A stretch of 64,000 nt of DNA from the NCBI GenBank assembly GCA_964615775.1, contig CAZTQB010000001.1, positions 60,599 to 124,598 of the forward strand. Direction: 5' to 3'. Positions 10,418 through 49,300 of this stretch are shown here, piece after piece. The stretch's first letter is position 1. Every line of letters begins with the position of its first letter. The DNA comes from an uncultured Candidatus Saccharibacteria bacterium (GTDB lineage Bacteria; Patescibacteriota; Saccharimonadia; Saccharimonadales; 2-12-FULL-41-12). Below the pieces are notes generated by a model. It did not search any database, had not been told where the DNA came from, and saw nothing but the letters and a program-made list of their open reading frames with translations. The translations under genes and the position numbers were made by a program.

Positions 10418-10427
10418 AGGAAAATAG

Positions 10428-35079: not shown

Positions 35080-35372
35080 GCAGATTTTTTAGTAATAAAA
35101 CACGTAGGCAACTTTTTTAATTGTAAAAATACTTGCTTTATACTACGAAATATATATACGAAATATCAATATTTACGAAGTTTAGAAAATGTTGTATTCT
35201 TTTAATAGTCACAGGGGTGACTTAGTTTTGTGTTACATTCTTTCGATTAATAAACTTTAGGTGAGAGGAGCTTATAAACCGGAGGAATCTTCGGCTCTTT
35301 GGCATTGGCCAAAGGTGAACCCCGCACCTTAACAAACTGGTACAAAATAAAAATATTATAGGGGGTGAGCAA

Positions 35373-36845
35373 ATGAGTCCTGTTGATTTTGGAAAATTTC
35401 GTGGTCAACATAAAGAAGACAACGAAATTTCTAATCAACCCCATCAGGAGAAAGTCAGCCAGCACGAAGTACAAGTTCGTGTTCGTGATTGGTCGGAAGT
35501 CAACTCTGGGTCGAGACTAAAGTTCAATCGAGCAGAAGTCTCCAACAGGTTTACACATGCATTCAAGAAGCCTGGCTTTGTGGCTTGGGCATGCTTGTTC
35601 GGTGTAACTATTGTACTCTTGGCCGTGATTGCCCTGAGTGCTAGCACGATCATCAGTGCAGTTGCAATCATGCTAATGATTGCCGTAGTAACGTTTGGTA
35701 TCTATCGAGTTTATACTCGGAGCGAGGTACCAGACTTCGAAACTCCCATCGAGACGGTTTTGCCCGATCGAGGAGTCTCGAAGGTTCGCTACATGGTAAA
35801 TCGAAAGTTTGGGCGACCCGATATTGTTCCGAGTATCAACAAGGAGCAAGAGAGCGATATTTTCGAGCAGCGGATTAAGCTGCTTGAAGGCAGGATTCGC
35901 GATATCGTCAACCTTGGTGTCCACCCGAACATTTGGGTAGGCAACCAAAAAGGTAGCTCGGCGAAGTCAGTCATGGCAGTTATCATGGGTGAAATCTTGG
36001 CAGAAATCACTCGTCGAATTGTTGTGCTGCTCCCATCGTCTACCTCAACTCAGACTGCAACCGCAGGAAATTTGGCAGGTGTACGTGGTAAGACCCTAAC
36101 TTTGCGTCAGTATGCCACCAAATTGCAAGATGAAGAGATTAGCTTTCACGAGCTTTTTAAGATGGTTGCAGTAACCAAACACGGACTGCGTGTTATCTCT
36201 GAAGACACCATATCTAACGACAAGAGCAATTTCTCGAAGGTAAGATGGTTGAAAGTCCACTCGCATCTTCGAGAGAACGCAGAAATCATCATTTCCGATA
36301 CCGGGAATGATGATGCATATGCCTACACCGTGACTTCGGTTGCGATGAGGCAGTCTGACGTGGTGGTGGTTGCTGCAAACCGACTTATGAAGCAAACTTT
36401 GGAGTCGGCAGGAGCAACACTGGCGTACTATATGCACATGCAAAAAAACATTCGACAAGCAGTGGCAGGAGAAGGTCAAGCACTGGAAGGCGACTTGATT
36501 CCTGTCAGTGAAAAACTTGAGAATGCAGTCGTAGTGATGAATGCTTATGACCATGATGAAGGCAACGAGGAGTTTGTTTCTCGGCTCTCTAGTGGAATTA
36601 AGCTGTCAGGCGGAAATCCTTCGCTGTTCTCTAAGACAAGAGTATTTGGGGTGCAGGAAGATGATCATCTGTATGACACAGTTGAAGGGCTCGATTACAC
36701 TCAGATGGCTCGAGCAACATATTTCGACTATCTAGTAGTGATCGTTGCAGTATTTGAACAAGCAGCTCTGTTGCAAAAGGTCAAGGTTCCTAAGCGACAC
36801 TGGCTGATCAAGAACGTGGGCATTATTATGCCGTCGCCCTCGTAA
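35373..36845 (+). CDS. Island gene 1: membrane-anchored protein with degenerate P-loop (possible diverged coupling/ParA-like ATPase)
   Basis: 490 aa. Two N-terminal TM helices (FVAWACLFGVTIVLLAVIALSASTIISAVAIMLMIAVVTFGIY), then a ~400-aa soluble domain containing IWVGNQKGSSAKSVMAVIMGEI. This resembles a P-loop but is degenerate (QKGSSAKS versus GxxxxGKS). Confidence 0.45.
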   Translation: MSPVDFGKFRGQHKEDNEISNQPHQEKVSQHEVQVRVRDWSEVNSGSRLKFNRAEVSNRFTHAFKKPGFVAWACLFGVTIVLLAVIALSASTIISAVAIMLMIAVVTFGIYRVYTRSEVPDFETPIETVLPDRGVSKVRYMVNRKFGRPDIVPSINKEQESDIFEQRIKLLEGRIRDIVNLGVHPNIWVGNQKGSSAKSVMAVIMGEILAEITRRIVVLLPSSTSTQTATAGNLAGVRGKTLTLRQYATKLQDEEISFHELFKMVAVTKHGLRVISEDTISNDKSNFSKVRWLKVHSHLRENAEIIISDTGNDDAYAYTVTSVAMRQSDVVVVAANRLMKQTLESAGATLAYYMHMQKNIRQAVAGEGQALEGDLIPVSEKLENAVVVMNAYDHDEGNEEFVSRLSSGIKLSGGNPSLFSKTRVFGVQEDDHLYDTVEGLDYTQMARATYFDYLVVIVAVFEQAALLQKVKVPKRHWLIKNVGIIMPSPS

Positions 36846-36869
36846 GTATCTCCACTAAAAGGAGGAGAC

Positions 36870-37193
36870 ATGAGAAACCTCAAAATGTGGCTGAGCAGTT
36901 TGGTGATGATTTTGGTGCTGCCAGCTACCAGCTTGGCAATTAACACCAACCCCAAAGCACCGCCTGTGCTTGGACCAATTGGGCAGAACTGGGTGCAATG
37001 GGCAGTCTGGATTTTCATCGTCATTGCCCTGATCTTTGTCGGAATTGGCTTGCTTAAGTGGATTTCGGCGATCGGTAACGGTCGAAGCTCGGGACAAGCA
37101 ATTGCCATGATTGTGGCAGCCATCGTTGCCATAATCATTTTGTCCGACCTTCAGGGTTGGACGACACGACTCAGCCAGCTTTTCAGGCCGTGA
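36870..37193 (+). CDS. Island gene 2: small pilin-like membrane protein (VirB2/TrbC-like candidate)
   Basis: 107 aa. Signal peptide (…LVLPATSLA|IN) followed by two hydrophobic helices separated by a short loop. SD AAAGGAGGAGAC lies upstream. Confidence 0.4.
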   Translation: MRNLKMWLSSLVMILVLPATSLAINTNPKAPPVLGPIGQNWVQWAVWIFIVIALIFVGIGLLKWISAIGNGRSSGQAIAMIVAAIVAIIILSDLQGWTTRLSQLFRP

Positions 37194-37256
37194 GTCAATT
37201 TGGTGTCAGTCGCCTAGGTATCTTTGTCCTAGGCGACTAAACCATAGGAGAGAAAA

Positions 37257-37976
37257 ATGAATTTCAGAAAGCTGAGATGGTTTGTAGTGCCATTCGCTTT
37301 ATTGATGGTAATTGCAGTTGTGCTTGCGAATATTGACCATACGGTTACGCGAACGCAAACTATTACCAAAGATGCGAGTGGAAATACTGTCAGTAACCCA
37401 CCATCGCCTGTCGATCCTTCATCATCGAGTGTTGATGATGCACGTCGTTCGGCTGGCAATACGGTGGCGGTGTTGACATCGGCTTTTCTTTCACCTGAAG
37501 CGGACTTTCGTAATCAGGTGGATGAAGTTGCTACTCAGGAAACTGCCAGTCAACTTCGTAAGCTTTACTCTGGCTATGAAGCTGATGGTAAGCAGGTTCC
37601 TGCAGTAGGAGGAGATGCAATGGCAAAAAGCTTAGGGTACTCGTCTCTAGCTGATTTTCAGCAAAAAGGCAGGTATGACTTCCAAGCACTTCAGTACAAA
37701 GTCAAAAGTTTTGAAGCAGGAAAAAGTGCTGTGGTTGGTGTTTACGGCATCACAACCGTAATAACCAAGAAAAATCAGCGTTATTTTCAGCAGGATGTTC
37801 CATCGATCCAGATCTTGAGAATGGTTTGGCAAGATGGAAAGTGGCGTTATGACAAGCAACTTCGTCCACTAAAGGGTGAAGTACCAAGCTTCACAGAATC
37901 TGGCCAAAGTTTTACTCAGATTCTGGCGAAGTACAAGCTAGTCCTCGAGAATCAGAGGTACAAGACTTATGACTAA
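37257..37976 (+). CDS. Island gene 3: bitopic membrane protein (VirB8-like candidate)
   Basis: 239 aa. A single N-terminal TM (LRWFVVPFALLMVIAVVLANI), then a ~200-aa extracytoplasmic domain. Size and topology fit VirB8/TcpC-like proteins, with no sequence-level proof. Confidence 0.3.
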   Translation: MNFRKLRWFVVPFALLMVIAVVLANIDHTVTRTQTITKDASGNTVSNPPSPVDPSSSSVDDARRSAGNTVAVLTSAFLSPEADFRNQVDEVATQETASQLRKLYSGYEADGKQVPAVGGDAMAKSLGYSSLADFQQKGRYDFQALQYKVKSFEAGKSAVVGVYGITTVITKKNQRYFQQDVPSIQILRMVWQDGKWRYDKQLRPLKGEVPSFTESGQSFTQILAKYKLVLENQRYKTYD

Positions 37977-39093
37977 AACTCGTTGGCTCTCTAGCAGTTT
38001 GGTGATGCTTGTTTGCTTGTTCGGATTTATGAGCTGGCAAATGGCAAAACCAGACAAAGCTGGAGCAGATATCCTTGGGATTCCGACACCTTGTGATGTC
38101 ATTCCAAACCAAACCGCCTCCAACGTCTGTGGGGGGATCATTAATCCGATAGCTGGAGCCAATAATGTAATTGGTGCCATTCCGGGTGTGCCAAATCCGT
38201 CACAGATACCTGGCAAGGCGATTGGGAAAATAAAAGATGAAGTAGTTAGTCATACCGTTGAGCCAATGCTACGTGAAGTAGCTAAATTCTTTGGTATGGG
38301 AGTAATTTGGGGCTTGAAGATGGAAATCAAGTTCATCACACGAACAACATCACCGAACCTTAATGCTGCATGGTTCTCTGTGGCCTATCAGCAAATTCTT
38401 TGGCTTGCTTACATTTGGGCGTACATAGCCTTTATGTATCGGCTTGTAAAAGGAGCAAAAGAAGCGGATCTTGCTATCCACTTCTCCACATTCTTCAAAA
38501 TGGGAGTGTTTATTGCTCTCACAGGAGGAATGATGCTGACGGCAGCCTCTTGGCTGGTGACATTGGTAGACAAAAAACTCGTACCTGAACTCGCTGATGT
38601 AATGGGAGTTCAATTGGGCGATGTTATGAAAAACGTTGAGGGCTACCTCAACCAAATTATTGCTGGACAATTAGGCGTAGTAGCGGTACTGTTCACAATT
38701 TTTGTAATTGGAACAGTACTGTCTGGTGCAACGTTGTTTGTAATGGTATTTCGTTATATGTTTATACCATTACTGATCCTTGCTGCTCTATTCGCGTTAG
38801 CTCATAGCATCGGCGAAGAATCATGGGACAGGGCTAAAAAGGCCTTCTTGACCATCGGAGCTTGGATCGCATTTCCTGCAATATTGCTGTTTGTACTACA
38901 GTTGGGACTAGCTATGACATTAGAAGCCAATGATGCATTTACCACAATGATCATTCTATGTGCCACAACTGTGATGCCTTTGATCATCGGTATTTGGGCA
39001 ATCAAGAAAATCAGTGGTGCTGATTTCAAGGTTGAACCAGTCAAGCGAGCCGTGATTGCTCGTGCCTATTACACTAAGTTCAGGTCGAGTTAA
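37969..39093 (+). CDS. Island gene 4: polytopic membrane protein (VirB6/TrbL-like candidate)
   Basis: 374 aa. Signal/TM1, a ~70-aa extracellular loop, then about 6 further TM helices. Confidence 0.45.
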   Translation: MTKTRWLSSSLVMLVCLFGFMSWQMAKPDKAGADILGIPTPCDVIPNQTASNVCGGIINPIAGANNVIGAIPGVPNPSQIPGKAIGKIKDEVVSHTVEPMLREVAKFFGMGVIWGLKMEIKFITRTTSPNLNAAWFSVAYQQILWLAYIWAYIAFMYRLVKGAKEADLAIHFSTFFKMGVFIALTGGMMLTAASWLVTLVDKKLVPELADVMGVQLGDVMKNVEGYLNQIIAGQLGVVAVLFTIFVIGTVLSGATLFVMVFRYMFIPLLILAALFALAHSIGEESWDRAKKAFLTIGAWIAFPAILLFVLQLGLAMTLEANDAFTTMIILCATTVMPLIIGIWAIKKISGADFKVEPVKRAVIARAYYTKFRSS

Positions 39094-39152
39094 TGATTAA
39101 CCGTTCAAGGGTAAAGGCATGGATGCCTTCAACTAATGTTGGGAGGTGAGAA

Positions 39153-40727
39153 GTGTCTGAGCGACATCCGATTGAAAAAGAGCGTGGAATTCGAATTGTT
39201 GGGTCGCTAAGGCTCGATCATTCCACGATCTTTGCAGTTGTGCTGGTTGTAATCCTTTTGGTGCTTTTGCAGATTGTACCATTTGGAATATGGCTAGGCA
39301 TTACGTTTCTGGCAGCTGCTTTTTGGGGACTGCTAGTTTATGTCCCAGTTTCCAGAGACGGCAAACCGCTCCTCGCAATCCTCTATCGAAGGGCGAATTT
39401 TGACCTCGGTCAGAATGAGTTTTTCGACAAACGAGTCGAACGAGGAGAAAACTTCGAACTAACTAAACGTGCTAAGCGTGAATTCGCTAAGCGTTTGGGC
39501 AAGTTAGAACTTGTTCCATTTGAGATTTCGGGACAGAAGCTGTGCATTTATGATGATAAGCGAGATGAGACTTACACGTTCGTTGTGTATGTCAAAATCA
39601 GCTCTCTCTTCAATGCCAGCTCGCAAGAACGAGAATACCGTACAGAAGCATTTTCGAAGTTGCTCGATGTTGTAAAGAAGCATGAATTTTACCGATTCTC
39701 TTGGCAGGTGCAAGTTTTGCCAGGAGAAGCATTGAATCTTCGTTCAGAACGAGAAACAATGCTTAAGGTTAATGATCTAGTGAATAATAAATCAGACAAA
39801 GTCCACCAATTTATCGATGCTTACGAGCAAAAGATAATGGAACTGTCGTCTGAGAGAGTGGTGTCTCTACGGTTTACTGTCAAAAAAGATGATCCTCGAA
39901 TTAGGCACGCTCGCAAAAAGACAAAAATTACGACTGGCGAGTTTTTGTACAATCTCGTTGGTCAACTTGCCGATGAAGTAGGCCTGACCGATAGTCTGGC
40001 TAACAATCCATTTGGCATAAGTCAAGTTGATGCCCACACTTACAATGAGTCAGTTATGGACATCGGTCTGTTACTAGATCAAGTTTCAAAACTGCCTTTG
40101 GTTAGGGAGATGCGTAAGACTGGTATTCTCGAGCAATCTGACAAGCAAATTGATGAAAAGCTCGGTTTACCGACAGTCTGCGGTTTTGAAGCGAATCATG
40201 CCTGGCTCGGTGAAACGGTTCATATGAGCTTTTTCATCGAAAGTCTCTCCGAGTACGGATTGACGCCCACAGAATTTTTGTGGTTGATGAACCTCAGTAA
40301 TGAAGAAGGGCAGTCTGCAAAAGTAATTCCTTTGACTGTGACTGCTGTATATCAGCCAGTTTCACGGTCATCGACCAGTCGTATCTCGAGGTTCAATCGT
40401 AATACGACCAGCTCTATCATCGCCGACAAGCAGCTAGCTGGTTCAGCGGTGGATGCAGATCTGCAACGTGAGGCAGAATTGGCGAAACAAAAAACCATTC
40501 GGTTGGCATCGAGCCGTTCTGAATCACTTCGGATGAGAGTGTATGTTTCACTCCAAGGCAGTTCCGTCGAAGAAGTTACTGCCAATGCTGAGATTCTTCG
40601 CTCGACCGCAGCTAGGAATAACTGCAGTGTGCAAGGTCTTACGCTTAGGCAGTACGAAGGTGTATCTGTTGTGTTGCCCCTTGGACGTGGCCTCGCAGCT
40701 TTGAACTTCAAGGGAGTTTTCAAATGA
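39153..40727 (+). CDS. Island gene 5: VirB3-like TM pair fused to VirB4 N-terminal-domain-like region (candidate)
   Basis: 524 aa. GTG start 6 nt after GGGAGGTGAGAA. Two N-terminal TM helices, then a large soluble domain. It sits immediately upstream of the VirB4-type ATPase domain gene. Confidence 0.4.
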   Translation: MSERHPIEKERGIRIVGSLRLDHSTIFAVVLVVILLVLLQIVPFGIWLGITFLAAAFWGLLVYVPVSRDGKPLLAILYRRANFDLGQNEFFDKRVERGENFELTKRAKREFAKRLGKLELVPFEISGQKLCIYDDKRDETYTFVVYVKISSLFNASSQEREYRTEAFSKLLDVVKKHEFYRFSWQVQVLPGEALNLRSERETMLKVNDLVNNKSDKVHQFIDAYEQKIMELSSERVVSLRFTVKKDDPRIRHARKKTKITTGEFLYNLVGQLADEVGLTDSLANNPFGISQVDAHTYNESVMDIGLLLDQVSKLPLVREMRKTGILEQSDKQIDEKLGLPTVCGFEANHAWLGETVHMSFFIESLSEYGLTPTEFLWLMNLSNEEGQSAKVIPLTVTAVYQPVSRSSTSRISRFNRNTTSSIIADKQLAGSAVDADLQREAELAKQKTIRLASSRSESLRMRVYVSLQGSSVEEVTANAEILRSTAARNNCSVQGLTLRQYEGVSVVLPLGRGLAALNFKGVFK

Positions 40728-40803
40728 TTTTATCAAAGTTTACTCAACATAAACTAAAGATAAAATCGACCTCTTAACCTAAAAACGAGGGAGGTGAGAA
40801 GAA

Positions 40804-42156
40804 TTGGCTATTGATAAAAGCCATCTTGCACGAATTGTTAGCGGTGATACTTTGCCGACTTTTCGTGAAATGACCGAAGACCTAGCTCCTGTCAATCCGC
40901 TGTGTCTGGAACACGGATTTATCAATCCTAAAACTGGGCAAAAATTGATTGGCGTACCTCTGGGTATTGCTGGTCTCGGTGGAATAGCGGGTAACTTTGA
41001 GTTTTGTGAGTACACCGCCCATCAGGCTGATCCTGAAACGGCGTTTTCGCTAAACTCGATTGTCTTTGGACAAACAGGCTATCGCAAGTCATCTGGAGAA
41101 AAAATAAGAATTTTGCGTGATACTTTGCTTTTTTCACGCAACTATCTGGTCACTGATCGAAAGGGTGAGTACCGTGTGCTAGCGGGATACATCGACGGTG
41201 CAAAAGTCCTTAACTTCAGTGACAATGCTCAGTACTTCATTAATCCTTTGGACCCTGTCATGGGACTAGATGCTCAATTGGAGCTACTGACTGCATTGAT
41301 TGTAACCGCAGGAAAACACTTCACTCAGGGGCTTACACCACTGGAGAATACTCTCTTGTGGAACTCGATTATCGAATGTCACAATTCCCCTGGGATAATA
41401 GGTATTCCGACTTTGCCGAGCTTGATCGAAAAACTCCGAAACCCTTCTGCTAGTACAGTCGAAGATTTGAGTGTCGGAAATATCGATGATATCAACAAGC
41501 TTAGTGCAAATCTCAGATTGACGCTCGAACGTCTATCTGAAAAAGGTAATCTTGCTGGAATGTTTCACAAACCAACGACGCCAGGGCTTTTTGATGCAGT
41601 GCCGTTGCTGGTTCTAGACTGTGAGGGACTTGATGGCGAGAAAGCGGTTGTAATGACCACTCTCATCAACTTCTTTACTCTCGAAAAAAATGCAAAATCA
41701 TCTTCAGATAACAGGTTTCATCACGTTATCCATGATGAATCGTGGGACCTTGCAGCATACAGCGGATTTGTCAGTTCGGTGAGGCGGGCCTATAAGCTCG
41801 GACGGAGCAAAGGTTTTGGTAACCGAATGGTGGTTCACCATTGGCAAAACCTTATTCGATCTGCTACATCTCAGATCGAAGACATCGCCAGTGACACCTC
41901 ATTGGTTATCAGTTATCGGCAAAACCGAGCTGAACTTGAAGCTAGTTCACATCTGTTTGGGTATACAGATAATGAAATTGAAAGGATTGTAAAACTTCCT
42001 CAAGGCCATGCTCTGTATAAGTTCACTACTGGCAACATACCCGCACTCGAGGTGCGATATGTAGCCATGCCGTGGGAGATTCCGCTGCTCGAAACAAGCC
42101 ACCTCGTTAAGGGCAAAAGCGGACTTTCATCAAGTGAACTGGCGTCAACTTCCTAG
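40804..42156 (+). CDS. Island gene 6: VirB4/TrbE-family ATPase C-terminal domain
   Basis: 450 aa. TTG start 9 nt after GGAGG. P-loop-like IVFGQTGYRKSSGEK (aligns with VirB4 GxTGxGKS but has Arg at the second conserved Gly) and Walker B/VirB4 signature LLVLDCEG...HHVIHDESWDLA (DEAW-type). Confidence 0.6.
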   Translation: MAIDKSHLARIVSGDTLPTFREMTEDLAPVNPLCLEHGFINPKTGQKLIGVPLGIAGLGGIAGNFEFCEYTAHQADPETAFSLNSIVFGQTGYRKSSGEKIRILRDTLLFSRNYLVTDRKGEYRVLAGYIDGAKVLNFSDNAQYFINPLDPVMGLDAQLELLTALIVTAGKHFTQGLTPLENTLLWNSIIECHNSPGIIGIPTLPSLIEKLRNPSASTVEDLSVGNIDDINKLSANLRLTLERLSEKGNLAGMFHKPTTPGLFDAVPLLVLDCEGLDGEKAVVMTTLINFFTLEKNAKSSSDNRFHHVIHDESWDLAAYSGFVSSVRRAYKLGRSKGFGNRMVVHHWQNLIRSATSQIEDIASDTSLVISYRQNRAELEASSHLFGYTDNEIERIVKLPQGHALYKFTTGNIPALEVRYVAMPWEIPLLETSHLVKGKSGLSSSELASTS

Positions 42157-42168
42157 GGTTGAGATATC

Positions 42169-43287
42169 ATGTCCCATAAAAATGGAAGTGAAGCACTAAA
42201 AGCAGGTATAGTGGGGTGGCTAATTGGAGTGATTGGTTTTCCAGTCATTCTGATGTCAGTAGGTGTGGTATCGATAGTTATGTTTGTCTTAATGATCGGC
42301 AGTAGCACTATGTCGGCTGGTGGATGTGCCACAGCAGTTACTGGCGATAATAATACCCAGAAGACGTACAACTATCTTATGCAGTCTGAGTTCGATCTCA
42401 AACCTTTTCAGGCGGCTGCGATTGTCGGTAACTTCATCCACGAAAGTGGTGGAGATCCACTCAAAACTAACAATCCCAACCCAACTTCAGGTGCTGTGGG
42501 GATTGCACAGTGGCTAGGTAGTCGGCAAACAGCTCTTAAGGCTCACAACTACCAAGGCAAAACCTGGACTGATATTGATTTTCAGTTAGACTTCATGAAG
42601 TCTGAACTCTTTGGAGGCTGGAAATCTGCACTTATTGCGGTCAGACGCTCTACTACAATTGAAGAGGCAACCGTAATATTTGAGAAAATATATGAAGTAT
42701 CAGGCGACACTGGATCGTATCCTAAGAGAATTAAAAACGCCAAAAACGTTTTAGAAAAATATGGAAAAAGTGCATCCAGCAATCTAGGATGTGTAAGTGT
42801 CGCAGTAAGTGGTACACTTACTGATCCTGGCAAAGGTCCTCAAAACCCCAAGACCGGCTTAGTGCCTCGATCAGAAAATCTTCAAAAATTTATTTTTGCT
42901 AATTGGGGATGCGAGAAGCTTCACGGTACACCATGTATTCGTGAAATTGGCGGATACAGTGTTCGTCCTGCTGGTACTCCGCAGGATCACACTCTCGGTC
43001 TGGCTCTTGATATTACAGTTAGTGACGGAATCGGTAAGTACCCGTCGCCAACGGAGCAATCCCTGGGTTGGCAAATTGCCTGCTTTCTGGCAAGTAACGC
43101 TAGTAAAGTAGGTGTCAGGTATCTTATTTGGCAAGGTAAAATCTGGAATGTTACTCGTCTTAACGAAGGCAATTCAGCCGCTTGTCAACTAGGAACAGGG
43201 TGGCGTCCATACACCTACGGATATGGTGTAACTGAAGGTCATTATGACCACGTACATGTCACTGTTCAGCCTGGAGTGGGTGGTTAA
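42169..43287 (+). CDS. Island gene 7: membrane-anchored two-domain peptidoglycan hydrolase (lysozyme-like + LAS/M15-like peptidase)
   Basis: 372 aa. N-terminal TM (LIGVIGFPVILMSVGVVSIVMFVLMIG). A lysozyme-like domain with FQAAAIVGNFIHESGGDP...GAVGIAQW (CwlT/phage-tail-lysozyme-type signature). A C-terminal domain with DHTLGLALDI (HxxGxAxD) and TEGHYDHVHV (ExxH / HxH), typical of LAS-superfamily (VanY/M15-like) zinc peptidases. Confidence 0.65.
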   Translation: MSHKNGSEALKAGIVGWLIGVIGFPVILMSVGVVSIVMFVLMIGSSTMSAGGCATAVTGDNNTQKTYNYLMQSEFDLKPFQAAAIVGNFIHESGGDPLKTNNPNPTSGAVGIAQWLGSRQTALKAHNYQGKTWTDIDFQLDFMKSELFGGWKSALIAVRRSTTIEEATVIFEKIYEVSGDTGSYPKRIKNAKNVLEKYGKSASSNLGCVSVAVSGTLTDPGKGPQNPKTGLVPRSENLQKFIFANWGCEKLHGTPCIREIGGYSVRPAGTPQDHTLGLALDITVSDGIGKYPSPTEQSLGWQIACFLASNASKVGVRYLIWQGKIWNVTRLNEGNSAACQLGTGWRPYTYGYGVTEGHYDHVHVTVQPGVGG

Positions 43288-43749: not shown

Positions 43750-44706
43750 TTAGTAGTTTTTACGCCGACCAAATCGGCTACGAAAATCTCCGTCAGATAA
43801 TAATGCAGCTATACCTACAACTAATATAATCGAAACTACGCCTCCTAGACCAATTCTCTCGAAAAAGTTACCTACACCGCTTAGAGGGTTGCGATTGTTA
43901 GTGTCGTAGGGTTGTCTGCCTTCGAAGGCGGCATCGTCAATCAATAGGCGTCTAGATGATATCTGTGGGTTTACGGCTGAAGAACCAGCAGGACATAGCT
44001 GACTATCAACAGCTGATTTTATAAAATTAATATTCTGCTTAGACATTCTGGTTGGGTCGCGGTGCATATAGCCGCTGTCTTTTGTCGCTCGACGGAAGTT
44101 AGTGCGATATTTCTCGGTAGTCGATATGTGGTCTTCATTTAAAATTACTGGCAAGAACGGATTACGGCTCTCAGAGTTCCTGAAAATAATTGTTGAAACA
44201 CTTGGTTTTAGTGGCCGAGTAATCGCACCATTACTCTTAGTGCAGGCGGTTGTACTTACACTGAGTGTTTCAACGCTGTTATTACCTGCTGCTAAATCAT
44301 CGTTTAAAACACGGGCAATATTAAAATTAGATAAAACTACCGAACGACCAGAGTTTTTCTTAAGATTGGCAGCTAAGAGTTCAGAGAATGTTTGCCCTGC
44401 CAAAGCAGACTCAGCCTCAGTCGAAGTTTTAGATTTTGGTTGGTCATCACCGCAAGACTTAATTGCCCCAAAAATAGCTAAACTGCCAATTAAAACAGAG
44501 GTCCCGATAAGTAATGTTAGTTTATTTCGTTCGTAAAAACTCTTGTCGGAGTCTTCTAGTACTACTTGAGGCTTCCGATATTCGTCGTAAGTAGCGTTTG
44601 TGGCTTCATTATTCTCTAGATTCTCTGGCGGAAAGATCTTGTTGTCATGACTTTTTTCATTATCAGACTCTTTATTTGTCATAATAATATATTTTACGCT
44701 CAGCAA
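43750..44706 (-). CDS. Hypothetical membrane protein (TM near both termini)
   Basis: 318 aa. Acidic N-terminal cytoplasmic region, a TM (LTLLIGTSVLIGSLAIFGAI), a ~230-aa S/T/N-rich extracytoplasmic region and a C-terminal TM (GLGGVVSIILVVGIAALL). Composition is AT-rich like the host. Confidence 0.45.
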   Translation of the reverse strand: MLSVKYIIMTNKESDNEKSHDNKIFPPENLENNEATNATYDEYRKPQVVLEDSDKSFYERNKLTLLIGTSVLIGSLAIFGAIKSCGDDQPKSKTSTEAESALAGQTFSELLAANLKKNSGRSVVLSNFNIARVLNDDLAAGNNSVETLSVSTTACTKSNGAITRPLKPSVSTIIFRNSESRNPFLPVILNEDHISTTEKYRTNFRRATKDSGYMHRDPTRMSKQNINFIKSAVDSQLCPAGSSAVNPQISSRRLLIDDAAFEGRQPYDTNNRNPLSGVGNFFERIGLGGVVSIILVVGIAALLSDGDFRSRFGRRKNY

Positions 44707-44813: not shown

Positions 44814-46895
44814 GTGGCAAAAGTAGACATTAACAAACTCCGAAATATTGGAATCATTGCCCATATTGATGCAGGTAAGACAACGACTACCGAAGGTATT
44901 TTGTATCGAACTGGCCTAAAGCACAAAATTGGAGCTGTGCATGAGGGTGAAACTACAACTGACTGGATGGCTCAGGAACGTGAACGAGGTATCACTATTG
45001 TGTCAGCGGCGGTTACTTGCCACTGGAGAGATCATCAGATTAACATCATTGATACACCCGGTCACATCGATTTTACAGTAGAAGTGCAACGTAGTTTGCG
45101 AGTGCTAGATGGAGCAATTACGGTGTTTGACGGTAAAATGGGTGTCGAATCTCAATCAGAAACTGTTTGGCGACAAGCTGACAGCTACAACGTGCCGCGT
45201 ATTTGTTTTATTAACAAAATTAACCAAACTGGTGGCGATTTTTATAAGTCGCTTGAATCAATCCACAATCGTCTTAGCAAGCGAGCTTTTCCGATCCATT
45301 TGCCGATTGGCTTTGAGCAGTCCGTTAATGGAATTGTCGATCTAGTAAGTATGAAATCGTACACTTATAAAGATTTTACAGACAAAGAGCTGGTTGAAGG
45401 AGAAATCCCGGCTGATATGCTTGAAGAGGCTAAACGTTACCGAAGTTTGCTTATCGAGAATGCTGTTGCAGAAGATGAAGCTATGCTTGAAAAATACCTA
45501 GAAGTTGGCGAAGAAGGCATGAGTGAAGAAGACATTCGTTCAAGTATTCGTTCAGCAGTGCTAACTGGTGCATTTTTCATCGTAACTGGCGGTGATGGTC
45601 GAGGTGTAATTGTAGAGAAGTTGCTAGATATTGCTACCGAATACCTACCAAGTCCACTTGACAGAGGCTCTAACTGGGGTACACACCCCAAAACTGATGA
45701 AGAAGTCGAACGAAAGCCGTCTGAGAGTGAGCCACTAGCTGGCCTAGCCTTCAAGATTACGACTGACCCATTTGTTGGCAAGTTGGCTTATTACCGAGTT
45801 TATTCTGGCAAGCTAACTGCCGGAAGCTATGTTTTGAACAGCTCGACTGGCGAAAAAGAGCGAATTGGCCGAATTGTTCGCATGCAAGCTGATAAGCGAG
45901 AGGAAGTTAGCGAAGTGGTGGCTGGCGATATTGCTGCTATCGTCGGACTTAAAAATACCACTACTGGTAACACGCTGTGCGACCAAAACAACCCAATAAT
46001 CTTAGAGAGCATCACCTTCCCAGAGCCACCAGTAAGTATTGCTATCGAGCCAAAAACTAAGTCTGACCAAGAAAAAATGAGCCTGGCTTTGCAACGACTA
46101 GCCGAAGAAGACCCAACTTTTCGGGTAAACGTCAATGACGAAACTGGTCAAACTATCATCTCTGGTATGGGTGAATTACACCTTGAAATTTTAGTAGATC
46201 GCATGAAGCGAGAGTTCTCAGTAGAAGCAAATATAGGTCAGCCACAGGTCGCTTATCGTGAAACTATCCGTAAGGACGCTGTAGAAGTAGAAGGTAAGTT
46301 TGTTCGTCAGAGTGGTGGTCGTGGTCAGTATGGCCATGTTTGGCTACGCCTTAGCCAGAATGAAGCAGGTAAGGGCTTCGAGTTTATCAACTCTATCAAG
46401 GGTGGAGTTGTGCCTGGTGAGTATATCAAGCCGGTTCAGCAAGGAATTGAAGAGGCTATGAGTAATGGTGTTGTAGCTGGTTACCCGGTAGTCGATATTA
46501 AAGCAGAATTATATGATGGTAGTTACCACGACGTTGACTCTTCAGAGATGGCCTTTAAAATTGCTGGATCAATGGCTCTACAAGATGGTGTCAAGAAAGC
46601 TAGTCCAGTTTTGCTGGAGCCAATTATGAAGGTAGTAGCAGTAACTCCAGAAGAATTTATGGGTGATGTAATTGGTTCATTGAACTCAAAGCGTGGTCGT
46701 ATTGAAAGTATGGACGACCTTCAGAATGGTGTTAAGCAAATTACCGCTTTTGTACCACTGGGTGAGTTATTTGGTTATACTACAGAGCTAAGAAGCTCTA
46801 CCCAGGGTCGAGCTAGTTCGTCAATGGAGCTAGATCACTATGCCGACGTACCGCCAAATGTTGCCGAAGCTATAATTGCCAAAAACGGCAAATAA
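44814..46895 (+). CDS. fusA: Elongation factor G
   Basis: GTG start. [27 protein letters not shown]...DTPGHIDF... Full five-domain length (693 aa). Confidence 0.95.
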
Positions 46896-46901: not shown

Positions 46902-49106
46902 TTAAATCAGTTTTTTCAGTAACTCATGAACATGGCTGACTGAACGAATGCGGTAATTAGCTGCAGTTTGGTCGCGTCCAACCTTGATAGTGTAATTATG
47001 CTTGCCAATTACTTTAAACATATCTTCATCTGTATAATCATCACCAATTGCCAAAATTAAGCTTGGCTTTAGTTTCTTAATAGTACTAGCTACTAAGATA
47101 TCTTTACCTACAGTTTTGGGTTTAATCTCGATTATTTTACTGCCTTGGCAAATGTCAAGAGAAGTATCTAGTAAGATTCGGCTTAATTCATTTATCAGTC
47201 CTTCTTTTCGTACAAATGCCAGTTGTTCCGGAACTGTACGATAATGCCAAACTATTGAGGATTTTTTGTCTTCTACGTATGCTCCAGGTGTTCGTAGCGT
47301 ATATTTAGTAAGTAAGTTTAAAATTTCTTGCCTCTTGCCGTCAAAATTATGCTCTTTAGTTTGCCATTTTCCATCAACTTTTAATGCTGCACCATGCTCA
47401 CCTGCTAAGTTGACCTTGTAACTGCCAAACCATTTTTCCAGAGTTTCAGCTGGTCTACCACTGATAATATAAACTGTATTTTTAGGATCACTTGATATTT
47501 TTTTTAAAATATCACGCAGGTCTTTCGATGGCTCGGGATCGTAGATTTTTTGAGTTGAAACAAAATCACGTAACGTACCATCATAATCCAGTAAAATTAG
47601 ACGTTTTTTAGATTGAGTGTAGTTTTCATATAGCTTTAGCTCATCTTTTTTTGTCATAATTTTGCGGTATTGGGTTGCTTGAGTTTGTTTGATGGCTCGA
47701 AGCTGTTCAATAAAATCTTCTGCCCATCGTTGTATTGTGTATTCAGAAATACGTTGTTTCATCAATTTGATACGAGCTTTTTGTTGTTTTTCGGGCATGT
47801 TTAAACCGTCTTCAATCGCTTTGACGATGCTACGAGTGTCGTTGGGATTAACCTTTATAGCTTCATGCAGCTCATCAACTGCACCGGCCATCTCGCTCAA
47901 GATAAGAACACCATCGTTGTCAGTCCGGCAAGCCACAAATTCTTTAGCAACTAGGTTCATACCGTCTCTTATTGGTGTAACTAAAGCAATATCTGATGCA
48001 CTGTAGAGTGCGACTAATTCGTCGAAAGGTAAATTTTTGAACTGATAAGAAATTGGCGTCCATTTAACATCGGCGTACTGACCGTTAATTCGGCCAATAG
48101 CCTGCTCAATTTGATCACGCAAATGTTGATAAGTTTCTACGTCCGTTCGTGATGGTACGGCTACCACGACCAGACTGACTTTACCGTGTTGATGCGGATG
48201 TTCTTTTAAAAATAGCTCAAAAGCTTCCAAACGCTCTAAAATGCCTTTTGAATAATCTAGTCTGTCGACTGACAGAATTATTTTTTGATTTTTGTAGATT
48301 TTGTTGATTTCTCTAGCCCGTTTGCTGACAGTCCGAGAGTTGGCGGCTTCATCAAACTTTTTGTAATCAATTCCAATCGGGAAGCTGTCGGCCGTAGTGT
48401 TGCGGCCATAATTGTCAATCGACGAGCCTTTAACTTCGCTGGACAAGATCCTCTTGCAGCTACTTAAAAAATGCCTAACGTAGTCGTAAATATGAAAGCC
48501 AACTAAATCGCTTCCCATAAGCCCCTCTAATATTTCACGACGATTTGGTAGCTGCCGAATAATCTCATATGACGGGAATGGAATATGCAGGAAAAAGCCA
48601 ATTGCTAATCTTGGCAAGAGTATTCGCAGTTTTTGTGGTAGGAGCATTAGGTGATAATCATGAACCCAAACATAAGAGTTTACGTCAATATTAGTTATGA
48701 CCGCACTTGCATAGGCTTCATTTACATCTTGATAAGCTTTCCAGTATTTAGGGTTGTTGTTTGCATAAGATTGAAAATAATGGAACAGCGGCCAAATTGT
48801 ATCGTTGGCATAGCCTGAGTAAAAATTATCAACCTGTTTTTGATTGAGATAAACTGGTATAAAATTATGTTCTTCTAGAGTAGCCTCGATCTGTTTTCTG
48901 TCATCTGTAGTTAACTCTTCGCTAGCAATTCCTGGCCAGCCAATCCATAAAAAAGATTCTTTGTCTATGTCTAGAGACGACATTGCCGTAGCTAATCCAC
49001 CGCTACTACTCGAGAACTGCAGCTTACCCTTCTCGTCTTTTGATACGCTAATCGGCAACCGGTTAGATACAACTACCAGTTTCTGTCCTGACTCTAGTAA
49101 ACTCAT
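46902..49106 (-). CDS. Bifunctional trehalose-6-phosphate synthase (GT20) / trehalose-6-phosphate phosphatase (HAD) fusion
   Basis: OtsA-like N-terminal half (LVVVSNRLP, WVHDYHLMLLP, glycosyltransferase core) and OtsB-like HAD C-terminal half (LILLDYDGTL, ...GDDYTDEDMF). The start is set at the internal Met (MSLLESGQK), which has an AAGGAG SD. The track's 49331 start would overlap tuf. Confidence 0.8.
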   Translation of the reverse strand: MSLLESGQKLVVVSNRLPISVSKDEKGKLQFSSSSGGLATAMSSLDIDKESFLWIGWPGIASEELTTDDRKQIEATLEEHNFIPVYLNQKQVDNFYSGYANDTIWPLFHYFQSYANNNPKYWKAYQDVNEAYASAVITNIDVNSYVWVHDYHLMLLPQKLRILLPRLAIGFFLHIPFPSYEIIRQLPNRREILEGLMGSDLVGFHIYDYVRHFLSSCKRILSSEVKGSSIDNYGRNTTADSFPIGIDYKKFDEAANSRTVSKRAREINKIYKNQKIILSVDRLDYSKGILERLEAFELFLKEHPHQHGKVSLVVVAVPSRTDVETYQHLRDQIEQAIGRINGQYADVKWTPISYQFKNLPFDELVALYSASDIALVTPIRDGMNLVAKEFVACRTDNDGVLILSEMAGAVDELHEAIKVNPNDTRSIVKAIEDGLNMPEKQQKARIKLMKQRISEYTIQRWAEDFIEQLRAIKQTQATQYRKIMTKKDELKLYENYTQSKKRLILLDYDGTLRDFVSTQKIYDPEPSKDLRDILKKISSDPKNTVYIISGRPAETLEKWFGSYKVNLAGEHGAALKVDGKWQTKEHNFDGKRQEILNLLTKYTLRTPGAYVEDKKSSIVWHYRTVPEQLAFVRKEGLINELSRILLDTSLDICQGSKIIEIKPKTVGKDILVASTIKKLKPSLILAIGDDYTDEDMFKVIGKHNYTIKVGRDQTAANYRIRSVSHVHELLKKLI

Positions 49107-49300
49107 TTTTCTCCTTCTTAGCCTCTTAATAGAGAGTATATCATTATATTTACAAACTAAATTGTTAGCTATGTTACATTTAATATCTTTACATGGAGTA
49201 CTAAAATAGGTTAATATATCTCGGTAACATATGTGTGCCTTTAGTTTTGCCTTGGCTACGCATATTTTAATAACAATAATTAATTTTAAGGAGCTAAATA

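What the first reader, a model, noticed from the sequence alone, without database searches (positions are those of the whole stretch)
42169..43287. Membrane-anchored two-domain cell-wall hydrolase (lysozyme-like + LAS/M15-like peptidase) as the last island gene
After the N-terminal TM anchor, the first domain has the FQAAAIVGNFIHESGGDP…GIAQW signature of the CwlT/phage-tail-lysozyme muramidase family. The C-terminal domain carries HxxGxAxD (DHTLGLALDI) and ExxH/HxH (EGHYDHVHV), the metal-binding pattern of LAS-superfamily (VanY/M15-type) peptidases. Known Gram-positive T4SS hydrolases (CwlT, TcpG, PrgK) pair a muramidase with an NlpC/P60 or CHAP domain. A muramidase plus M15-like pairing would be a different domain combination. 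In an epibiont this enzyme could cut the partner cell's peptidoglycan as well as its own.
Basis: partly seen in the sequence, partly recalled or inferred. Interest (0 to 1): 0.65.

Follow-up and report, generated by a model that had tools for sequence, protein, structure and literature searches.

The report
T4SS-linked two-domain cell-wall hydrolase
This gene encodes a membrane-anchored enzyme with two known wall-cutting modules, a phage-tail-type lysozyme and a VldE-type zinc peptidase; it sits at the end of a type IV secretion gene cluster in a Saccharibacteria-like genome, and it is a new combination of familiar parts rather than a new kind of enzyme.

Summary
ORF 42169..43287 (+, 372 aa) has an N-terminal TM helix and two catalytic domains. 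The first is a phi29-gp13-type "phage tail lysozyme" (PF18013, E 7e-28) whose catalytic Glu92 aligns with gp13 Glu45. The second is a LAS-fold zinc peptidase.

The C-domain is not VanY/M15 in the Pfam sense. It belongs to the VldE/MT3 family (PF26571). Its solved member, pneumococcal VldE, is an L,D-endopeptidase that cuts L-Ala–D-iGlx. All six residues whose mutation inactivated VldE, plus the transition-state Arg and the latch Glu, are conserved. The model superposes on VldE at TM 0.80.

The N-domain is not CwlT-like at family level.

The gene lies 12 nt downstream of a TrsD-like/VirB4-like ATPase pair, in a seven-gene T4SS module inserted between rpsG and fusA. The same module, always ending in a VldE-domain hydrolase, recurs in other Saccharibacteria-type contigs. 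There the N-terminal glycosidase is swapped (PF18013, SLT_2, or an SLT_3-like module). The nearest outside relatives are T4SS-linked hydrolases of Actinomycetota.

The protein is best read as the VirB1-like wall-opening enzyme of this T4SS. The exact fusion is rare and not described in the papers searched. The idea has precedents: gp13 (lysozyme + M23), VldE-plus-lysozyme proteins, and adjacent LAS and PF18013 genes in the Ca. S. epibionticum T4SS. Interest is modest.

The parts
42169..43287 (+). Complete hydrolase gene (372 aa plus stop). It starts 12 nt after the stop of the VirB4-like gene.
   Evidence: An identical protein, P0001, is in public collections with precomputed PF18013 + PF26571.
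42193..42306 (+). N-terminal membrane anchor (about residues 9-46). Lys4 and Lys11 lie on the N-side, which suggests an N-in/C-out topology (inferred).
   Evidence: Hydropathy; AlphaFold helix 8-43.
42352..42762 (+). Domain 1, residues 62-198: phage-tail lysozyme (PF18013, phi29 gp13 N-domain type).
   Evidence: Pfam E 6.8e-28. Profile vs PDB: gp13 3csr at E 3.2e-15. Foldseek 3csr TM 0.66. pLDDT about 90.
42442..42444 (+). Codon of Glu92, the predicted catalytic acid of the lysozyme domain.
   Evidence: Invariant in 22 homologous N-domains. Aligns with gp13 Glu45, the proposed catalytic residue (PMC10394673).
42763..42810 (+). Low-confidence interdomain linker (about residues 199-214), containing Cys208.
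   Evidence: pLDDT 53-66 for residues 201-220.
42811..43284 (+). Domain 2, residues 215-372: VldE/MT3-type LAS-fold zinc peptidase (PF26571). It includes a subfamily-specific N-terminal extension (DPGxGPQ...LVPR...WGC...PC, residues 219-260) and a conserved QPGVGG tail.
   Evidence: Precomputed PF26571. phmmer vs PDB 9flh at E 5e-6. Foldseek 9flm TM 0.80. Conservation.
42964..42966 (+). Codon of Arg266, equivalent to VldE Arg294 (transition-state stabilisation).
   Evidence: Alignment. Invariant in 13 close homologues. Role from PMC11667670.
42988..43011 (+). The H274-x6-D281 motif, two of the three predicted Zn ligands (VldE H301 and D308).
   Evidence: Alignment. At least 90% conserved in 150 representatives.
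43234..43257 (+). E356-G-H358-Y-D360-H361-V-H363. These correspond to VldE E368 (latch), H370 (general base), D372, H373 and H375 (third Zn ligand).
   Evidence: Alignment. H358 is invariant and D360/H361/H363 are at least 90% conserved. Mutational data for VldE are in PMC11667670.
35373..36845 (+). i1: 490-aa membrane protein, the first gene of the module. Function unknown.
   Evidence: TM segments. Homologues in L003, L045 and L046. No family hit.
36870..37193 (+). i2: 107-aa protein with a signal-peptide-like start and two TM segments. Its topology resembles a VirB2 pilin (inferred only).
   Evidence: No significant family hit.
37257..37976 (+). i3: 239-aa single-TM protein.
37969..39093 (+). 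i4: 374-aa polytopic membrane protein, VirB6/TrbL-like.
   Evidence: 4-5 TM segments. It is homologous to the L045 373-aa protein, which carries PF19590 TrbL_3.
39153..40727 (+). i5: 524-aa TrsD-like protein (related to the N-terminal half of VirB4) with two N-terminal TM segments.
   Evidence: Sub-threshold NCBIfam hits to SCO6880 family (E 8e-9), Mbov_0397 VirB4 and CD1110 VirB4. The TrsD concept is from PMC12102498.
40804..42156 (+). i6: 450-aa VirB4-like ATPase (C-terminal P-loop half).
   Evidence: CD1110 VirB4 at E 1e-6. Weak AAA_10 hit. 24% identity (E 1e-15) to an actinobacterial VirB4-like protein that matches VirB4-family NCBIfam models at E 2e-17, below their curated cut-offs.
43750..44706 (-). 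r318: a fast-evolving two-TM protein on the opposite strand. It probably belongs to the module as well.
   Evidence: 69% identity to the L001 copy. A homologue follows the hydrolase in L047.

Best explanation
The gene encodes a bifunctional peptidoglycan hydrolase. A single N-terminal transmembrane helix tethers it to the cytoplasmic membrane, with both catalytic modules outside the cell.

Module 1 (residues ~55-205) is a phi29-gp13-type lysozyme-like glycosidase. It uses Glu92 to cut the glycan strand.

Module 2 (residues ~215-372) is a VldE/MT3-type LAS-fold zinc metallopeptidase. The predicted Zn ligands are H274, D281 and H363. H358 is the predicted general base, and R266 stabilises the transition state. 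By analogy with VldE it most likely cuts the L-Ala-D-isoGlu/Gln bond of the stem peptide.

The gene probably shares an operon with a TrsD-like/VirB4-like ATPase pair, a VirB6-like protein and other membrane proteins. The enzyme would then act as the VirB1/CwlT-type 'wall opener' of a monoderm-type (MPF-FATA-like) type IV secretion module in a Saccharibacteria-like (CPR) bacterium. It would locally remove both the glycan and the peptide parts of the wall so the apparatus can span it.

Shown here: the domain identities, residue conservation, fold and conserved gene linkage. Inferred: topology, the exact bonds cleaved, co-transcription and the T4SS role.
For: Domain 1: PF18013 at 98 bits. An N-domain profile hits gp13 at E 3e-15, with the invariant E92 aligned to the gp13 catalytic E45. 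Foldseek matches 3csr.

Domain 2: precomputed PF26571 'VldE' on the identical protein. phmmer matches VldE at E 5e-6, with H301/D308/H370/D372/H373/H375/R294/E368 all matched. Each of the six His/Asp residues abolished muralytic activity when mutated in VldE (PMC11667670). They are invariant or at least 90% conserved across 150 representatives out of 907 family hits. The model superposes on the catalytically competent VldE structure 9flm at TM 0.80.

Context: the start codon lies 12 nt after the VirB4-like gene. i5 and i6 hit VirB4-family and SCO6880 models. The i4 homologue carries TrbL_3. The same gene order ending in a VldE-domain hydrolase is found in L001, L003, L044 and L045, and in the more divergent L046 and L047. 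L003 and L047 also have a type IV coupling protein next door.

The closest non-Saccharibacteria relatives of the C-domain are actinobacterial. Of these loci, 21 of 40 show a homologue of a gene from the L007 T4SS cluster within 10 kb (17 of them VirB4, SCO6880 or a coupling protein). The annotated example L007 reads ParB / M23+VldE hydrolase / SCO6880 / VirB4 / VirD4.

In Ca. S. epibionticum, a LAS-fold protein and a PF18013 protein immediately downstream of virB4 are essential for epibiotic growth.

The organism has a class A PBP in the same window, so it presumably makes peptidoglycan and has a wall to open.
Against: All VirB4/TrsD assignments in the window are below the curated family cut-offs, and neither protein hits the PDB by sequence. 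No coupling protein or relaxase is detectable in the 64-kb window.

The VldE residues proposed to read the acceptor-strand L-Lys carboxylate (K350, Y351, R363), as well as D297 and S291, are not conserved here; the aligned residues are N332, E333, G351, T270 and G261 (alignment). The bond and cross-link specificity may therefore differ.

No enzymatic, expression or genetic data exist for this protein. Promoter and terminator scans around the module are not above chance, so co-transcription rests only on gene spacing and shared strand.
Confidence: 0.68

Rival explanations
1. The enzyme is aimed at the host. It, or a released ectodomain, cuts the actinobacterial host's peptidoglycan at the epibiont-host contact. 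This would let the T4SS or pilus reach the host membrane, or release wall fragments as nutrients. This could hold in addition to self-wall remodelling.
For: The nearest relatives of the C-domain outside Saccharibacteria are all from Actinomycetota, the phylum that hosts cultured Saccharibacteria. T4SS genes, including the downstream LAS and lysozyme proteins, are essential for epibiotic growth in Ca. S. epibionticum. The N-terminal glycosidase module is swapped between otherwise similar modules. Adaptation to different target walls is one possible reason for such swapping.
Against: The protein carries a stable-looking TM anchor, and no cleavage site could be demonstrated. The catalytic part is no more diverged between the two strains than the core genes are (89.5% vs 92.7% for RpoC), so there is no sign of an arms race. 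The L-Ala-D-iGlx bond and the glycan backbone are common to self and host walls (established knowledge), so sequence alone cannot discriminate. The actinobacterial bias partly reflects search patterns derived from this subfamily.
Confidence: 0.17
2. It is a housekeeping autolysin used for growth, division or stress remodelling, as VldE is in pneumococcus, and it merely happens to lie next to T4SS genes.
For: VldE itself is a septum-localised, stress-induced remodelling enzyme with no T4SS link (PMC11667670). Reduced genomes often pack unrelated genes tightly together.
Against: Linkage to the VirB4-like pair is conserved across modules sitting at different chromosomal sites: between rpsG and fusA in the window and L001, and next to holB-TPR in L003, L045 and L047. 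The actinobacterial relatives are also T4SS-linked. The gene lies in a stretch with higher GC than its flanks (0.44-0.46 vs 0.38-0.41).
Confidence: 0.1
3. It is a remnant of a prophage tail lysin or tape-measure fragment, and the 'island' is phage-derived.
For: Both domains are typical of phage tail proteins. PHROGs hits are to tail and tape-measure families. tblastn finds 522 phage records, and BFVD matches are tail lysozymes and tape-measure proteins.
Against: No phage record covers at least 80% of the protein, and each phage hit covers only one domain. BFVD query TM-scores are at most 0.37. The neighbours are VirB4/TrsD/TrbL-like membrane and ATPase proteins, not capsid, portal or terminase. 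The protein is a 372-aa TM-anchored enzyme, not part of a tape-measure protein of over 1000 aa.
Confidence: 0.03
4. It is a catalytically dead scaffold or wall-binding protein.
For: None specific. Some LAS/M23 relatives, such as EnvC and NlpD, are inactive activators (established knowledge).
Against: Every catalytic and metal-binding residue of both domains is intact and conserved.
Confidence: 0.02

Closest known systems
VldE (Spr1875) of Streptococcus pneumoniae: MT3 domain, Pfam PF26571, PDB 9FLH-9FLN
   Same: The C-domain has the same fold (TM 0.80). It keeps the same Zn ligands (H-x6-D...H), the extended E-x-H-Y-D-H-V-H motif including the 'zinc-zipper' loop residues, and the transition-state Arg. 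The predicted chemistry is the same: zinc-dependent stem-peptide hydrolysis.
   Different: VldE has a LysM domain, a long disordered linker and the MT3 domain, with no glycosidase domain, no TM anchor and no T4SS context. Our domain has a ~45-residue N-terminal extension and four invariant cysteines that are absent from the aligned VldE segment. The VldE substrate-reading residues K350, Y351 and R363 are not conserved. Identity is only about 27%.
Bacteriophage phi29 gp13 (tail 'morphogenesis protein 1', PDB 3CSQ/3CSR)
   Same: The N-domain belongs to the same family (PF18013) with an aligned catalytic Glu. The overall logic is also the same: a lysozyme-like domain, a flexible linker, then a LAS-superfamily zinc peptidase.
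   Different: The peptidase domain of gp13 is M23/LytM-like, not VldE/MT3. gp13 is a soluble virion tail protein, not a TM-anchored cellular protein in a T4SS operon.
Gram-positive T4SS hydrolases (CwlT of ICEBs1, TcpG, PrgK, TraG of pIP501), the VirB1-like class
   Same: The functional class and layout match: an N-terminal membrane anchor or signal, two wall-degrading activities (glycosidase plus peptidase), and a gene inside a conjugation-type T4SS cluster next to VirB4 (PMC12102498; other details from my own knowledge).
   Different: Those enzymes pair SLT/lysozyme modules with CHAP or NlpC/P60 cysteine peptidases. Here the peptidase is a zinc LAS enzyme. The glycosidase is gp13-type, and no CwlT structure is hit at E<=1.
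Ca. Southlakia epibionticum ML1 T4SS proteins SEML1_0007 and SEML1_0006
   Same: They are from the same phylum-level lineage and sit in the same position, immediately downstream of virB4. The same two activity types are present: a Hedgehog/DD-peptidase (LAS) fold and PF18013 lysozyme. Both are essential for epibiotic growth.
   Different: There they are two separate, much larger proteins: 1113 aa, and 643 aa carrying an extra glucosaminidase and a Cys-protease fold. Here a single compact 372-aa fusion does the job. No sequence comparison was possible because those sequences are not held.
Actinobacterial T4SS/ICE hydrolases with a C-terminal VldE-type domain (for example the L007 Tessaracoccus 538-aa M23+VldE protein)
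   Same: This is the closest C-domain subfamily (33-40% identity). It is likewise encoded in clusters with SCO6880/TrsD-like, VirB4-like and VirD4-like genes.
   Different: The partner domain there is M23 (or SLT), not PF18013. The gene order differs, with the hydrolase upstream of the ATPases. Those clusters carry ParB and VirD4, so they look like genuine conjugative elements.
Mycobacteriophage tape-measure proteins with motif 3 (TM4 MT3)
   Same: The C-domain matches Patience-type tape-measure proteins at 36% identity and phrog_9228. This is the original definition of MT3 (PMC11667670).
   Different: There the domain is embedded in tape-measure proteins of over 1000 aa, without PF18013 adjacent.

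Membership tests
Pfam PF18013 Phage_lysozyme2 (phi29 gp13 N-domain type) | HMM score above the curated gathering threshold over the full domain | tested here: met
   98 bits vs a 28.2-bit cut-off, residues 62-198, profile positions 2-140 of 140.
Pfam PF18013 Phage_lysozyme2 (phi29 gp13 N-domain type) | Catalytic Glu equivalent to gp13 Glu45 | tested here: met
   E92 is invariant in 22 homologues and aligns to gp13 E45. The role of E45 is from PMC10394673.
Pfam PF18013 Phage_lysozyme2 (phi29 gp13 N-domain type) | Lysozyme-like alpha-helical fold | tested here: met
   Foldseek 3csr: E 2e-3, TM(target) 0.66. pLDDT is about 90 over residues 61-200.
Pfam PF18013 Phage_lysozyme2 (phi29 gp13 N-domain type) | Glycan-strand cleavage (muramidase vs lytic transglycosylase) | not testable with these tools
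   Requires muropeptide analysis.
VldE / MT3 family (Pfam PF26571; LAS fold, clan MD) | Family HMM match | tested here: met
   PF26571 is precomputed on the 100%-identical P0001 and on P0002. The local Pfam copy lacks this model. phmmer vs the VldE PDB sequence gives E 5e-6.
VldE / MT3 family (Pfam PF26571; LAS fold, clan MD) | Zn-1 ligands His-x6-Asp ... His (VldE H301, D308, H375) | tested here: met
   H274, D281 and H363 are aligned and at least 90% conserved in 150 representatives.
VldE / MT3 family (Pfam PF26571; LAS fold, clan MD) | MT3 signature H-Y-D-H-x-H (VldE H370, D372, H373, each essential) and the transition-state Arg (R294) | tested here: met
   H358, D360, H361 and R266. Mutational data are in PMC11667670.
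VldE / MT3 family (Pfam PF26571; LAS fold, clan MD) | LAS alpha/beta fold | tested here: met
   Foldseek 9flm: TM 0.80, probability 1.0.
VldE / MT3 family (Pfam PF26571; LAS fold, clan MD) | Residues proposed to confer acceptor-strand specificity (K350, Y351, R363; also S291 and D297) | tested here: not met
   The aligned residues are N332, E333, G351, G261 and T270 (alignment). Specificity may differ. These residues are not a family-defining feature.
VldE / MT3 family (Pfam PF26571; LAS fold, clan MD) | L,D-endopeptidase activity (L-Ala-D-iGlx) and zinc dependence | not testable with these tools
   Requires enzyme assays.
VanY / Peptidase M15 (Pfam PF02557 and relatives) | Match to an M15-family HMM | tested here: not met
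   The C-domain gives no Pfam hit even at E<=10. Only 1 of 145 VldE-domain proteins also carries a separate VanY domain. The resemblance is at the level of LAS/clan MD active-site geometry (PMC11667670).
CwlT-type bifunctional T4SS hydrolase (CwlT lysozyme domain + NlpC/P60) | N-domain homologous to the CwlT lysozyme domain | tested here: not met
   A profile of 22 N-domains hits only gp13 and a phage Gp16 in the PDB. No CwlT entry appears at E<=1, and no CwlT-type lysozyme family appears in the Pfam scan at E<=1.
CwlT-type bifunctional T4SS hydrolase (CwlT lysozyme domain + NlpC/P60) | C-terminal NlpC/P60 or CHAP cysteine peptidase | tested here: not met
   No such domain is present. The C-domain is a zinc LAS peptidase.
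VirB1-like T4SS-associated wall hydrolase (functional class) | Encoded within, and conserved with, a T4SS gene cluster next to VirB4 | tested here: met
   The gene starts 12 nt downstream of the VirB4-like gene. The synteny is conserved in L001, L003, L044 and L045, and analogous modules occur in L046 and L047. The VirB4/TrsD hits themselves are below threshold.
VirB1-like T4SS-associated wall hydrolase (functional class) | Match to VirB1/TrsG/CD419 profiles (CONJScan) | not tested
   Those profiles are not available here.
VirB1-like T4SS-associated wall hydrolase (functional class) | Required for T4SS function | not testable with these tools
   Requires genetics. Analogous genes are essential in Ca. 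S. epibionticum.

The most novel reading that the evidence does not exclude
The compact PF18013-VldE enzyme could be the wall-breaching tool of a mobile T4SS module that shares ancestry with those of Actinomycetota and that Saccharibacteria exchange between species. It would cut the host's peptidoglycan in trans. The swappable N-terminal glycosidase (PF18013, SLT_2 or an SLT_3-like module) on a constant VldE module would then tune the module to different host wall chemotypes. That would make it a determinant of host range in epibiosis.
Probability: 0.12. Interest if true: 0.7.

Novelty: new variant of a known kind. Interest (0 to 1): 0.3.

Why it matters
A recent survey found VirB1 homologues mostly not linked to virB4 in Patescibacteria, and suggested that other glycosidases fill that role (PMC12102498). 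This gene and its relatives supply a concrete candidate for a subset of Saccharibacteria: a VldE/MT3-type zinc peptidase fused to an exchangeable glycosidase, always the last forward gene after the TrsD/VirB4 pair.

The finding also extends the newly characterised VldE family. Until now that family was known from a pneumococcal stress enzyme and from phage tape-measure proteins. Here it appears in T4SS and conjugation contexts in Saccharibacteria and Actinomycetota.

The 372-aa two-domain enzyme is small enough for straightforward biochemistry on self versus host sacculi. That experiment bears on how epibionts breach cell walls. None of this overturns current understanding, because both domains and the functional class are known.

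Tried and rejected
(1) Local Pfam and NCBIfam scans of the C-terminal half found nothing. This was a database-version gap: PF26571 is absent from the local copy. It is not evidence of a novel fold.

(2) Literature searches for '9FLH', 'PF26571' and 'ARB_07466' returned nothing. The name 'VldE', taken from the precomputed Pfam label, led to the key paper.

(3) Lipoprotein hypothesis: Cys53 follows the TM segment, but the preceding A-G-G does not fit a canonical lipobox (my own knowledge of the motif), and the Cys is not in register across homologues. I did not adopt this idea.

(4) CwlT-family membership of the N-domain is rejected.

(5) VanY/M15 Pfam membership is rejected.

(6) Prophage origin is rejected (and the neighbouring genes).

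(7) A search for a coupling protein or relaxase in the window by tblastn with L003 and L007 proteins found none.

(8) Sequence searches of the PDB with the VirB4-like and TrsD-like proteins gave no hits.

(9) tRNA and Rfam scans found no att-like tRNA or RNA element at the island borders; the only hit is tRNA-Leu at 19412. Promoter and terminator scans were not above chance.

(11) I asked whether the 100%-identity block shared with L001 is a chimeric assembly. This is unlikely. A contig assembled from a second run (L002) carries the same divergent hydrolase downstream of a 100%-identical i6 end, and L044 confirms the window haplotype.
Full report
OBSERVATION

Only short unsupported ORFs lie on the other frames. 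The quoted motifs are present at residues 80-97 (FQAAAIVGNFIHESGGDP), 111-115 (GIAQW), 273-282 (DHTLGLALDI) and 356-364 (EGHYDHVHV). A 35-residue hydrophobic segment (about residues 12-46) follows a short Lys-containing N-terminus. The identical protein exists in public collections (P0001). It was assembled independently from another sequencing run: L044 (ERR3839023) is 99.98% nt identical over 4.36 kb.

DOMAIN 1

Pfam assigns residues 62-198 to PF18013 Phage_lysozyme2, at 98 bits against a 28.2-bit cut-off and E 6.8e-28. A profile of 22 homologous N-domains (A5) hits the phi29 tail enzyme gp13 at E 3.2e-15 over the whole domain. No CwlT structure is hit at E<=1. Glu92 is invariant in these homologues and aligns with gp13 Glu45. 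Glu45 is the proposed catalytic residue of gp13, and the equivalent Glu41 in the related GH184 family is essential for catalysis (PMC10394673). The AlphaFold model has pLDDT of about 90 in this domain. Foldseek recovers gp13 (3csr) at TM 0.66. So 'phage-tail lysozyme' is right, and 'CwlT family' holds only at the level of the lysozyme-like superfamily.

DOMAIN 2

The local Pfam and NCBIfam copies give no hit for the C-terminal half. The precomputed annotation of the identical protein, and of its 90% relative, lists PF26571, which is named 'VldE'. phmmer against PDB sequences finds the C-terminal domain of S. pneumoniae VldE/Spr1875 (9FLH series) at E 5e-6. Foldseek places the model on the catalytically competent VldE structure 9FLM at TM 0.80, probability 1.0.

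VldE is an experimentally characterised L,D-endopeptidase. It cuts L-Ala-D-iGlu/Gln in the acceptor strand of cross-linked stem peptides. It has the LAS fold and an M15-like active site. H301, D308 and H375 bind the catalytic zinc. H370, D372 and H373 are individually essential. R294 stabilises the transition state. E368 acts as a non-essential latch (PMC11667670).

In our protein these residues map as follows:
- H301, D308, H375 correspond to H274, D281, H363.
- H370, D372, H373 correspond to H358, D360, H361.
- R294 corresponds to R266.
- E368 corresponds to E356.

All are matched in the alignment.

A whole-library HMMER search with the C-domain alone finds 907 representative clusters at E<=1e-3. 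Among the 150 best, H358 is invariant and H274, D281, D360, H361 and H363 are at least 90% conserved. Neither is met.

Two caveats apply. The VldE residues proposed to read the acceptor-strand L-Lys carboxylate (K350, Y351, R363), along with S291 and D297, are not conserved here (alignment). The exact bond and cross-link specificity is therefore inferred, not established. Also, this subfamily has an extra conserved N-terminal extension (residues 219-260), four invariant cysteines and a conserved QPGVGG tail, none of which has a known role.

CONTEXT

The gene starts 12 nt after a 450-aa ORF. Upstream, on the same strand, lie six genes (35373-42156), inserted between rpsG (34600-35079) and fusA (44814-46895). 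GC in this stretch is 0.44-0.46, against 0.38-0.41 in most of the window.

The 524-aa and 450-aa proteins give sub-threshold hits to VirB4-family conjugal ATPases. The 524-aa protein matches the N-terminal half of VirB4 models and the actinobacterial SCO6880 family. The 450-aa protein matches the P-loop half. This split matches the TrsD + VirB4 arrangement reported as typical of Patescibacteria T4SS (PMC12102498). The 374-aa polytopic protein is homologous to a protein that carries PF19590 TrbL_3, which is VirB6-like. The 107-aa protein has a VirB2-pilin-like topology (this is inferred only).

The window looks like a CPR/Saccharibacteria genome. uS5 overlaps directly into uL15 with no uL30 gene between them; absence of uL30 is a known CPR trait (my own knowledge). 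The best genome hit for the hydrolase is an uncultured Candidatus Saccharibacteria MAG (L003, 53% identity).

CONSERVATION OF THE LINKAGE

The same gene order, ending in a VldE-domain hydrolase, occurs in L001 and L002 (90% hydrolase), L003, L044 and L045. More divergent versions occur in L046 and L047.

In L003, L045 and L047 the module sits next to holB-TPR genes rather than in the str operon. In L003 and L047 a type IV coupling protein lies just downstream on the opposite strand. The module is therefore found at different chromosomal sites. No coupling protein or relaxase is detectable in our window.

Across these modules the VldE domain is constant (50-75% identity by BLAST/phmmer). The N-terminal glycosidase differs: PF18013 in P0001-P0006, an SLT_3-like module in P0007-P0011 and P0014, and SLT_2 in P0012 and P0015.

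Outside Saccharibacteria, 40 of the 41 genome loci recovered are Actinomycetota. Of these, 21 have a homologue of a gene from the L007 T4SS cluster within 10 kb, and 17 of them have a VirB4-like, SCO6880 or coupling-protein homologue. An annotated example is L007 (Tessaracoccus). It reads ParB-like, a 538-aa M23+VldE hydrolase, SCO6880 family (E 3e-139), VirB4-like and VirD4-like.

WHAT IT MOST LIKELY DOES

The protein is most likely a membrane-tethered extracytoplasmic bifunctional peptidoglycan hydrolase. It would serve as the VirB1/CwlT-type wall opener of this T4SS module. The gp13-type domain would cut glycan strands, and the VldE-type domain would cut stem peptides, most likely at L-Ala-D-iGlx.

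The domain identities, residue conservation, fold and conserved linkage are shown here. The topology, the bond specificities, co-transcription and the T4SS role are inferred.

Published work supports the role by analogy. In Ca. Southlakia epibionticum ML1, the two genes immediately downstream of virB4 are SEML1_0007 (C-terminal Hedgehog/DD-peptidase fold) and SEML1_0006 (PF01832 + PF18013 + Cys-protease fold). Both are essential for epibiotic growth (PMC10633639 supplementary tables; PMC12102498).

RIVAL EXPLANATIONS

- Action on the host wall is not excluded and not tested.
- A T4SS-independent autolysin is made unlikely by the conserved linkage at different loci.
- A prophage remnant is rejected. 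No phage record or BFVD model covers both domains, and the neighbouring genes are T4SS-like.
- An inactive scaffold is unlikely because every catalytic residue is intact.

COMPARISON AND NOVELTY

The combination of a glycosidase with a LAS zinc peptidase is not new in principle, however:
- phi29 gp13 is PF18013 + M23.
- The VldE paper notes multidomain proteins, mainly from Actinobacteria, that combine VldE-MT3 with lysozyme-like, SH3 or peptidase domains.
- In my census of 145 VldE-domain representatives, Pfam matched SLT in 23, SLT_2 in 15, SLT_3 in 7, M23 in 21 and PF18013 in 4 (a protein can match more than one SLT family).

The specific PF18013-VldE fusion is rare. It occurs in six 90%-identity clusters among the homologues retrieved (P0001-P0006), plus one 1588-aa NlpC/P60 + PF18013 + VldE protein, P0089. 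I found no paper in the held library that links the VldE/MT3 domain to T4SS.

I therefore rate it a new variant of a known kind, with modest interest (0.3). It offers a tidy, testable candidate for the 'missing VirB1' of some Saccharibacteria T4SS. It is not a conceptual surprise.

SIDE OBSERVATIONS

A 7.06-kb block (35305-42365) has only 4 mismatches against L001. The flanks on both sides are only about 75-88% identical. The right breakpoint lies at about codon 66 of the hydrolase gene, just after the TM anchor. L002, assembled from a separate run, carries the same divergent hydrolase downstream of a 100%-identical i6 end. L044 confirms the window haplotype. This points to a very recent recombinational exchange of the T4SS genes between diverged strains.

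The str operon is also interrupted between fusA and tuf by a reverse-strand GT20-trehalose-phosphatase fusion gene.

Nearly identical SCO6880 proteins (97-98%) occur in six actinobacterial genera, which suggests a recently spread ICE.

Noticed in passing
window 35305-42365 vs L001: A 7.06-kb block (island genes i1-i6 plus the first ~65 codons of the hydrolase gene) differs by only 4 nt from a contig of another strain. That strain's flanking core genes (rpoC, rpsL, rpsG) and the rest of its hydrolase gene are only ~72-90% nt identical. The right breakpoint lies inside the hydrolase gene, just after the TM anchor. A contig from a second run (L002) carries the same divergent hydrolase downstream of a 100%-identical i6 end, and L044 confirms the window haplotype. 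This suggests a very recent recombinational exchange of T4SS genes between diverged Saccharibacteria.
   Followed up: partly
L001 12915-18379 (between the r318 homologue and fusA): The related strain carries about 6 kb of extra genes (353, 62, 238, 605, 132, 287 and 71 aa) that the window lacks. The 238-aa protein has weak SLT_2/glucosaminidase hits, so it may be a second wall hydrolase. The others have no family hits.
   Followed up: partly
window 43750-44706 (- strand): A 318-aa protein with two TM segments and no family hit is only 69% identical between the two strains, which makes it fast-evolving. A homologue follows the hydrolase in another module (L047). It is probably part of the island, so the hydrolase is not strictly the last island gene.
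   Followed up: partly
window 46902-49331 (- strand): A bifunctional trehalose-6-phosphate synthase/phosphatase-like gene (GT20 + Trehalose_PPase) sits on the opposite strand between fusA and tuf. This is a second interruption of the classical rpsL-rpsG-fusA-tuf operon.
   Followed up: no
window 60024-61165: The uS5 gene overlaps directly into the uL15 gene with no uL30 gene between them. Absence of uL30 is a known trait of CPR/Patescibacteria genomes, and it supports the taxonomic assignment.
   Followed up: yes
hydrolase residues 219-260 and 367-372 (window 42823-42948 and 43267-43284): This subfamily has motifs absent from VldE. They are D-P-G-x-G-P-Q...L-V-P-R...W-G-C...P-C before the catalytic core, four invariant cysteines (C248, C256, C305, C339) that may form two disulfides, and a conserved C-terminal Q-P-G-V-G-G tail. 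Their function is unknown.
   Followed up: no
L003, L045, L046, L047 (hydrolase genes at ~10001-11150 in each): In otherwise similar T4SS modules the hydrolase keeps the VldE domain (50-75% identity) but its N-terminal glycosidase module differs: PF18013, an SLT_3-like module, or SLT_2. This is domain shuffling at a fixed position in the operon.
   Followed up: partly
L005, L007, L008, L010, L012, L016: SCO6880-family proteins that are 97-98% identical, together with syntenic VirB4/VirD4 genes and an M23+VldE hydrolase, occur in six different actinobacterial genera: Pseudonocardia, Tessaracoccus, Austwickia, an Actinomycetaceae bacterium, Mobilicoccus and Kineosphaera. This looks like a recently spread broad-host-range conjugative element.
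   Followed up: no
P0089 (1588 aa, from the deep search): This giant protein carries NlpC/P60 (residues 260-332), PF18013 (1267-1392) and a VldE-type domain (1492-1578). It is the only other architecture found with PF18013 directly followed by VldE. Its origin is unknown.
   Followed up: no
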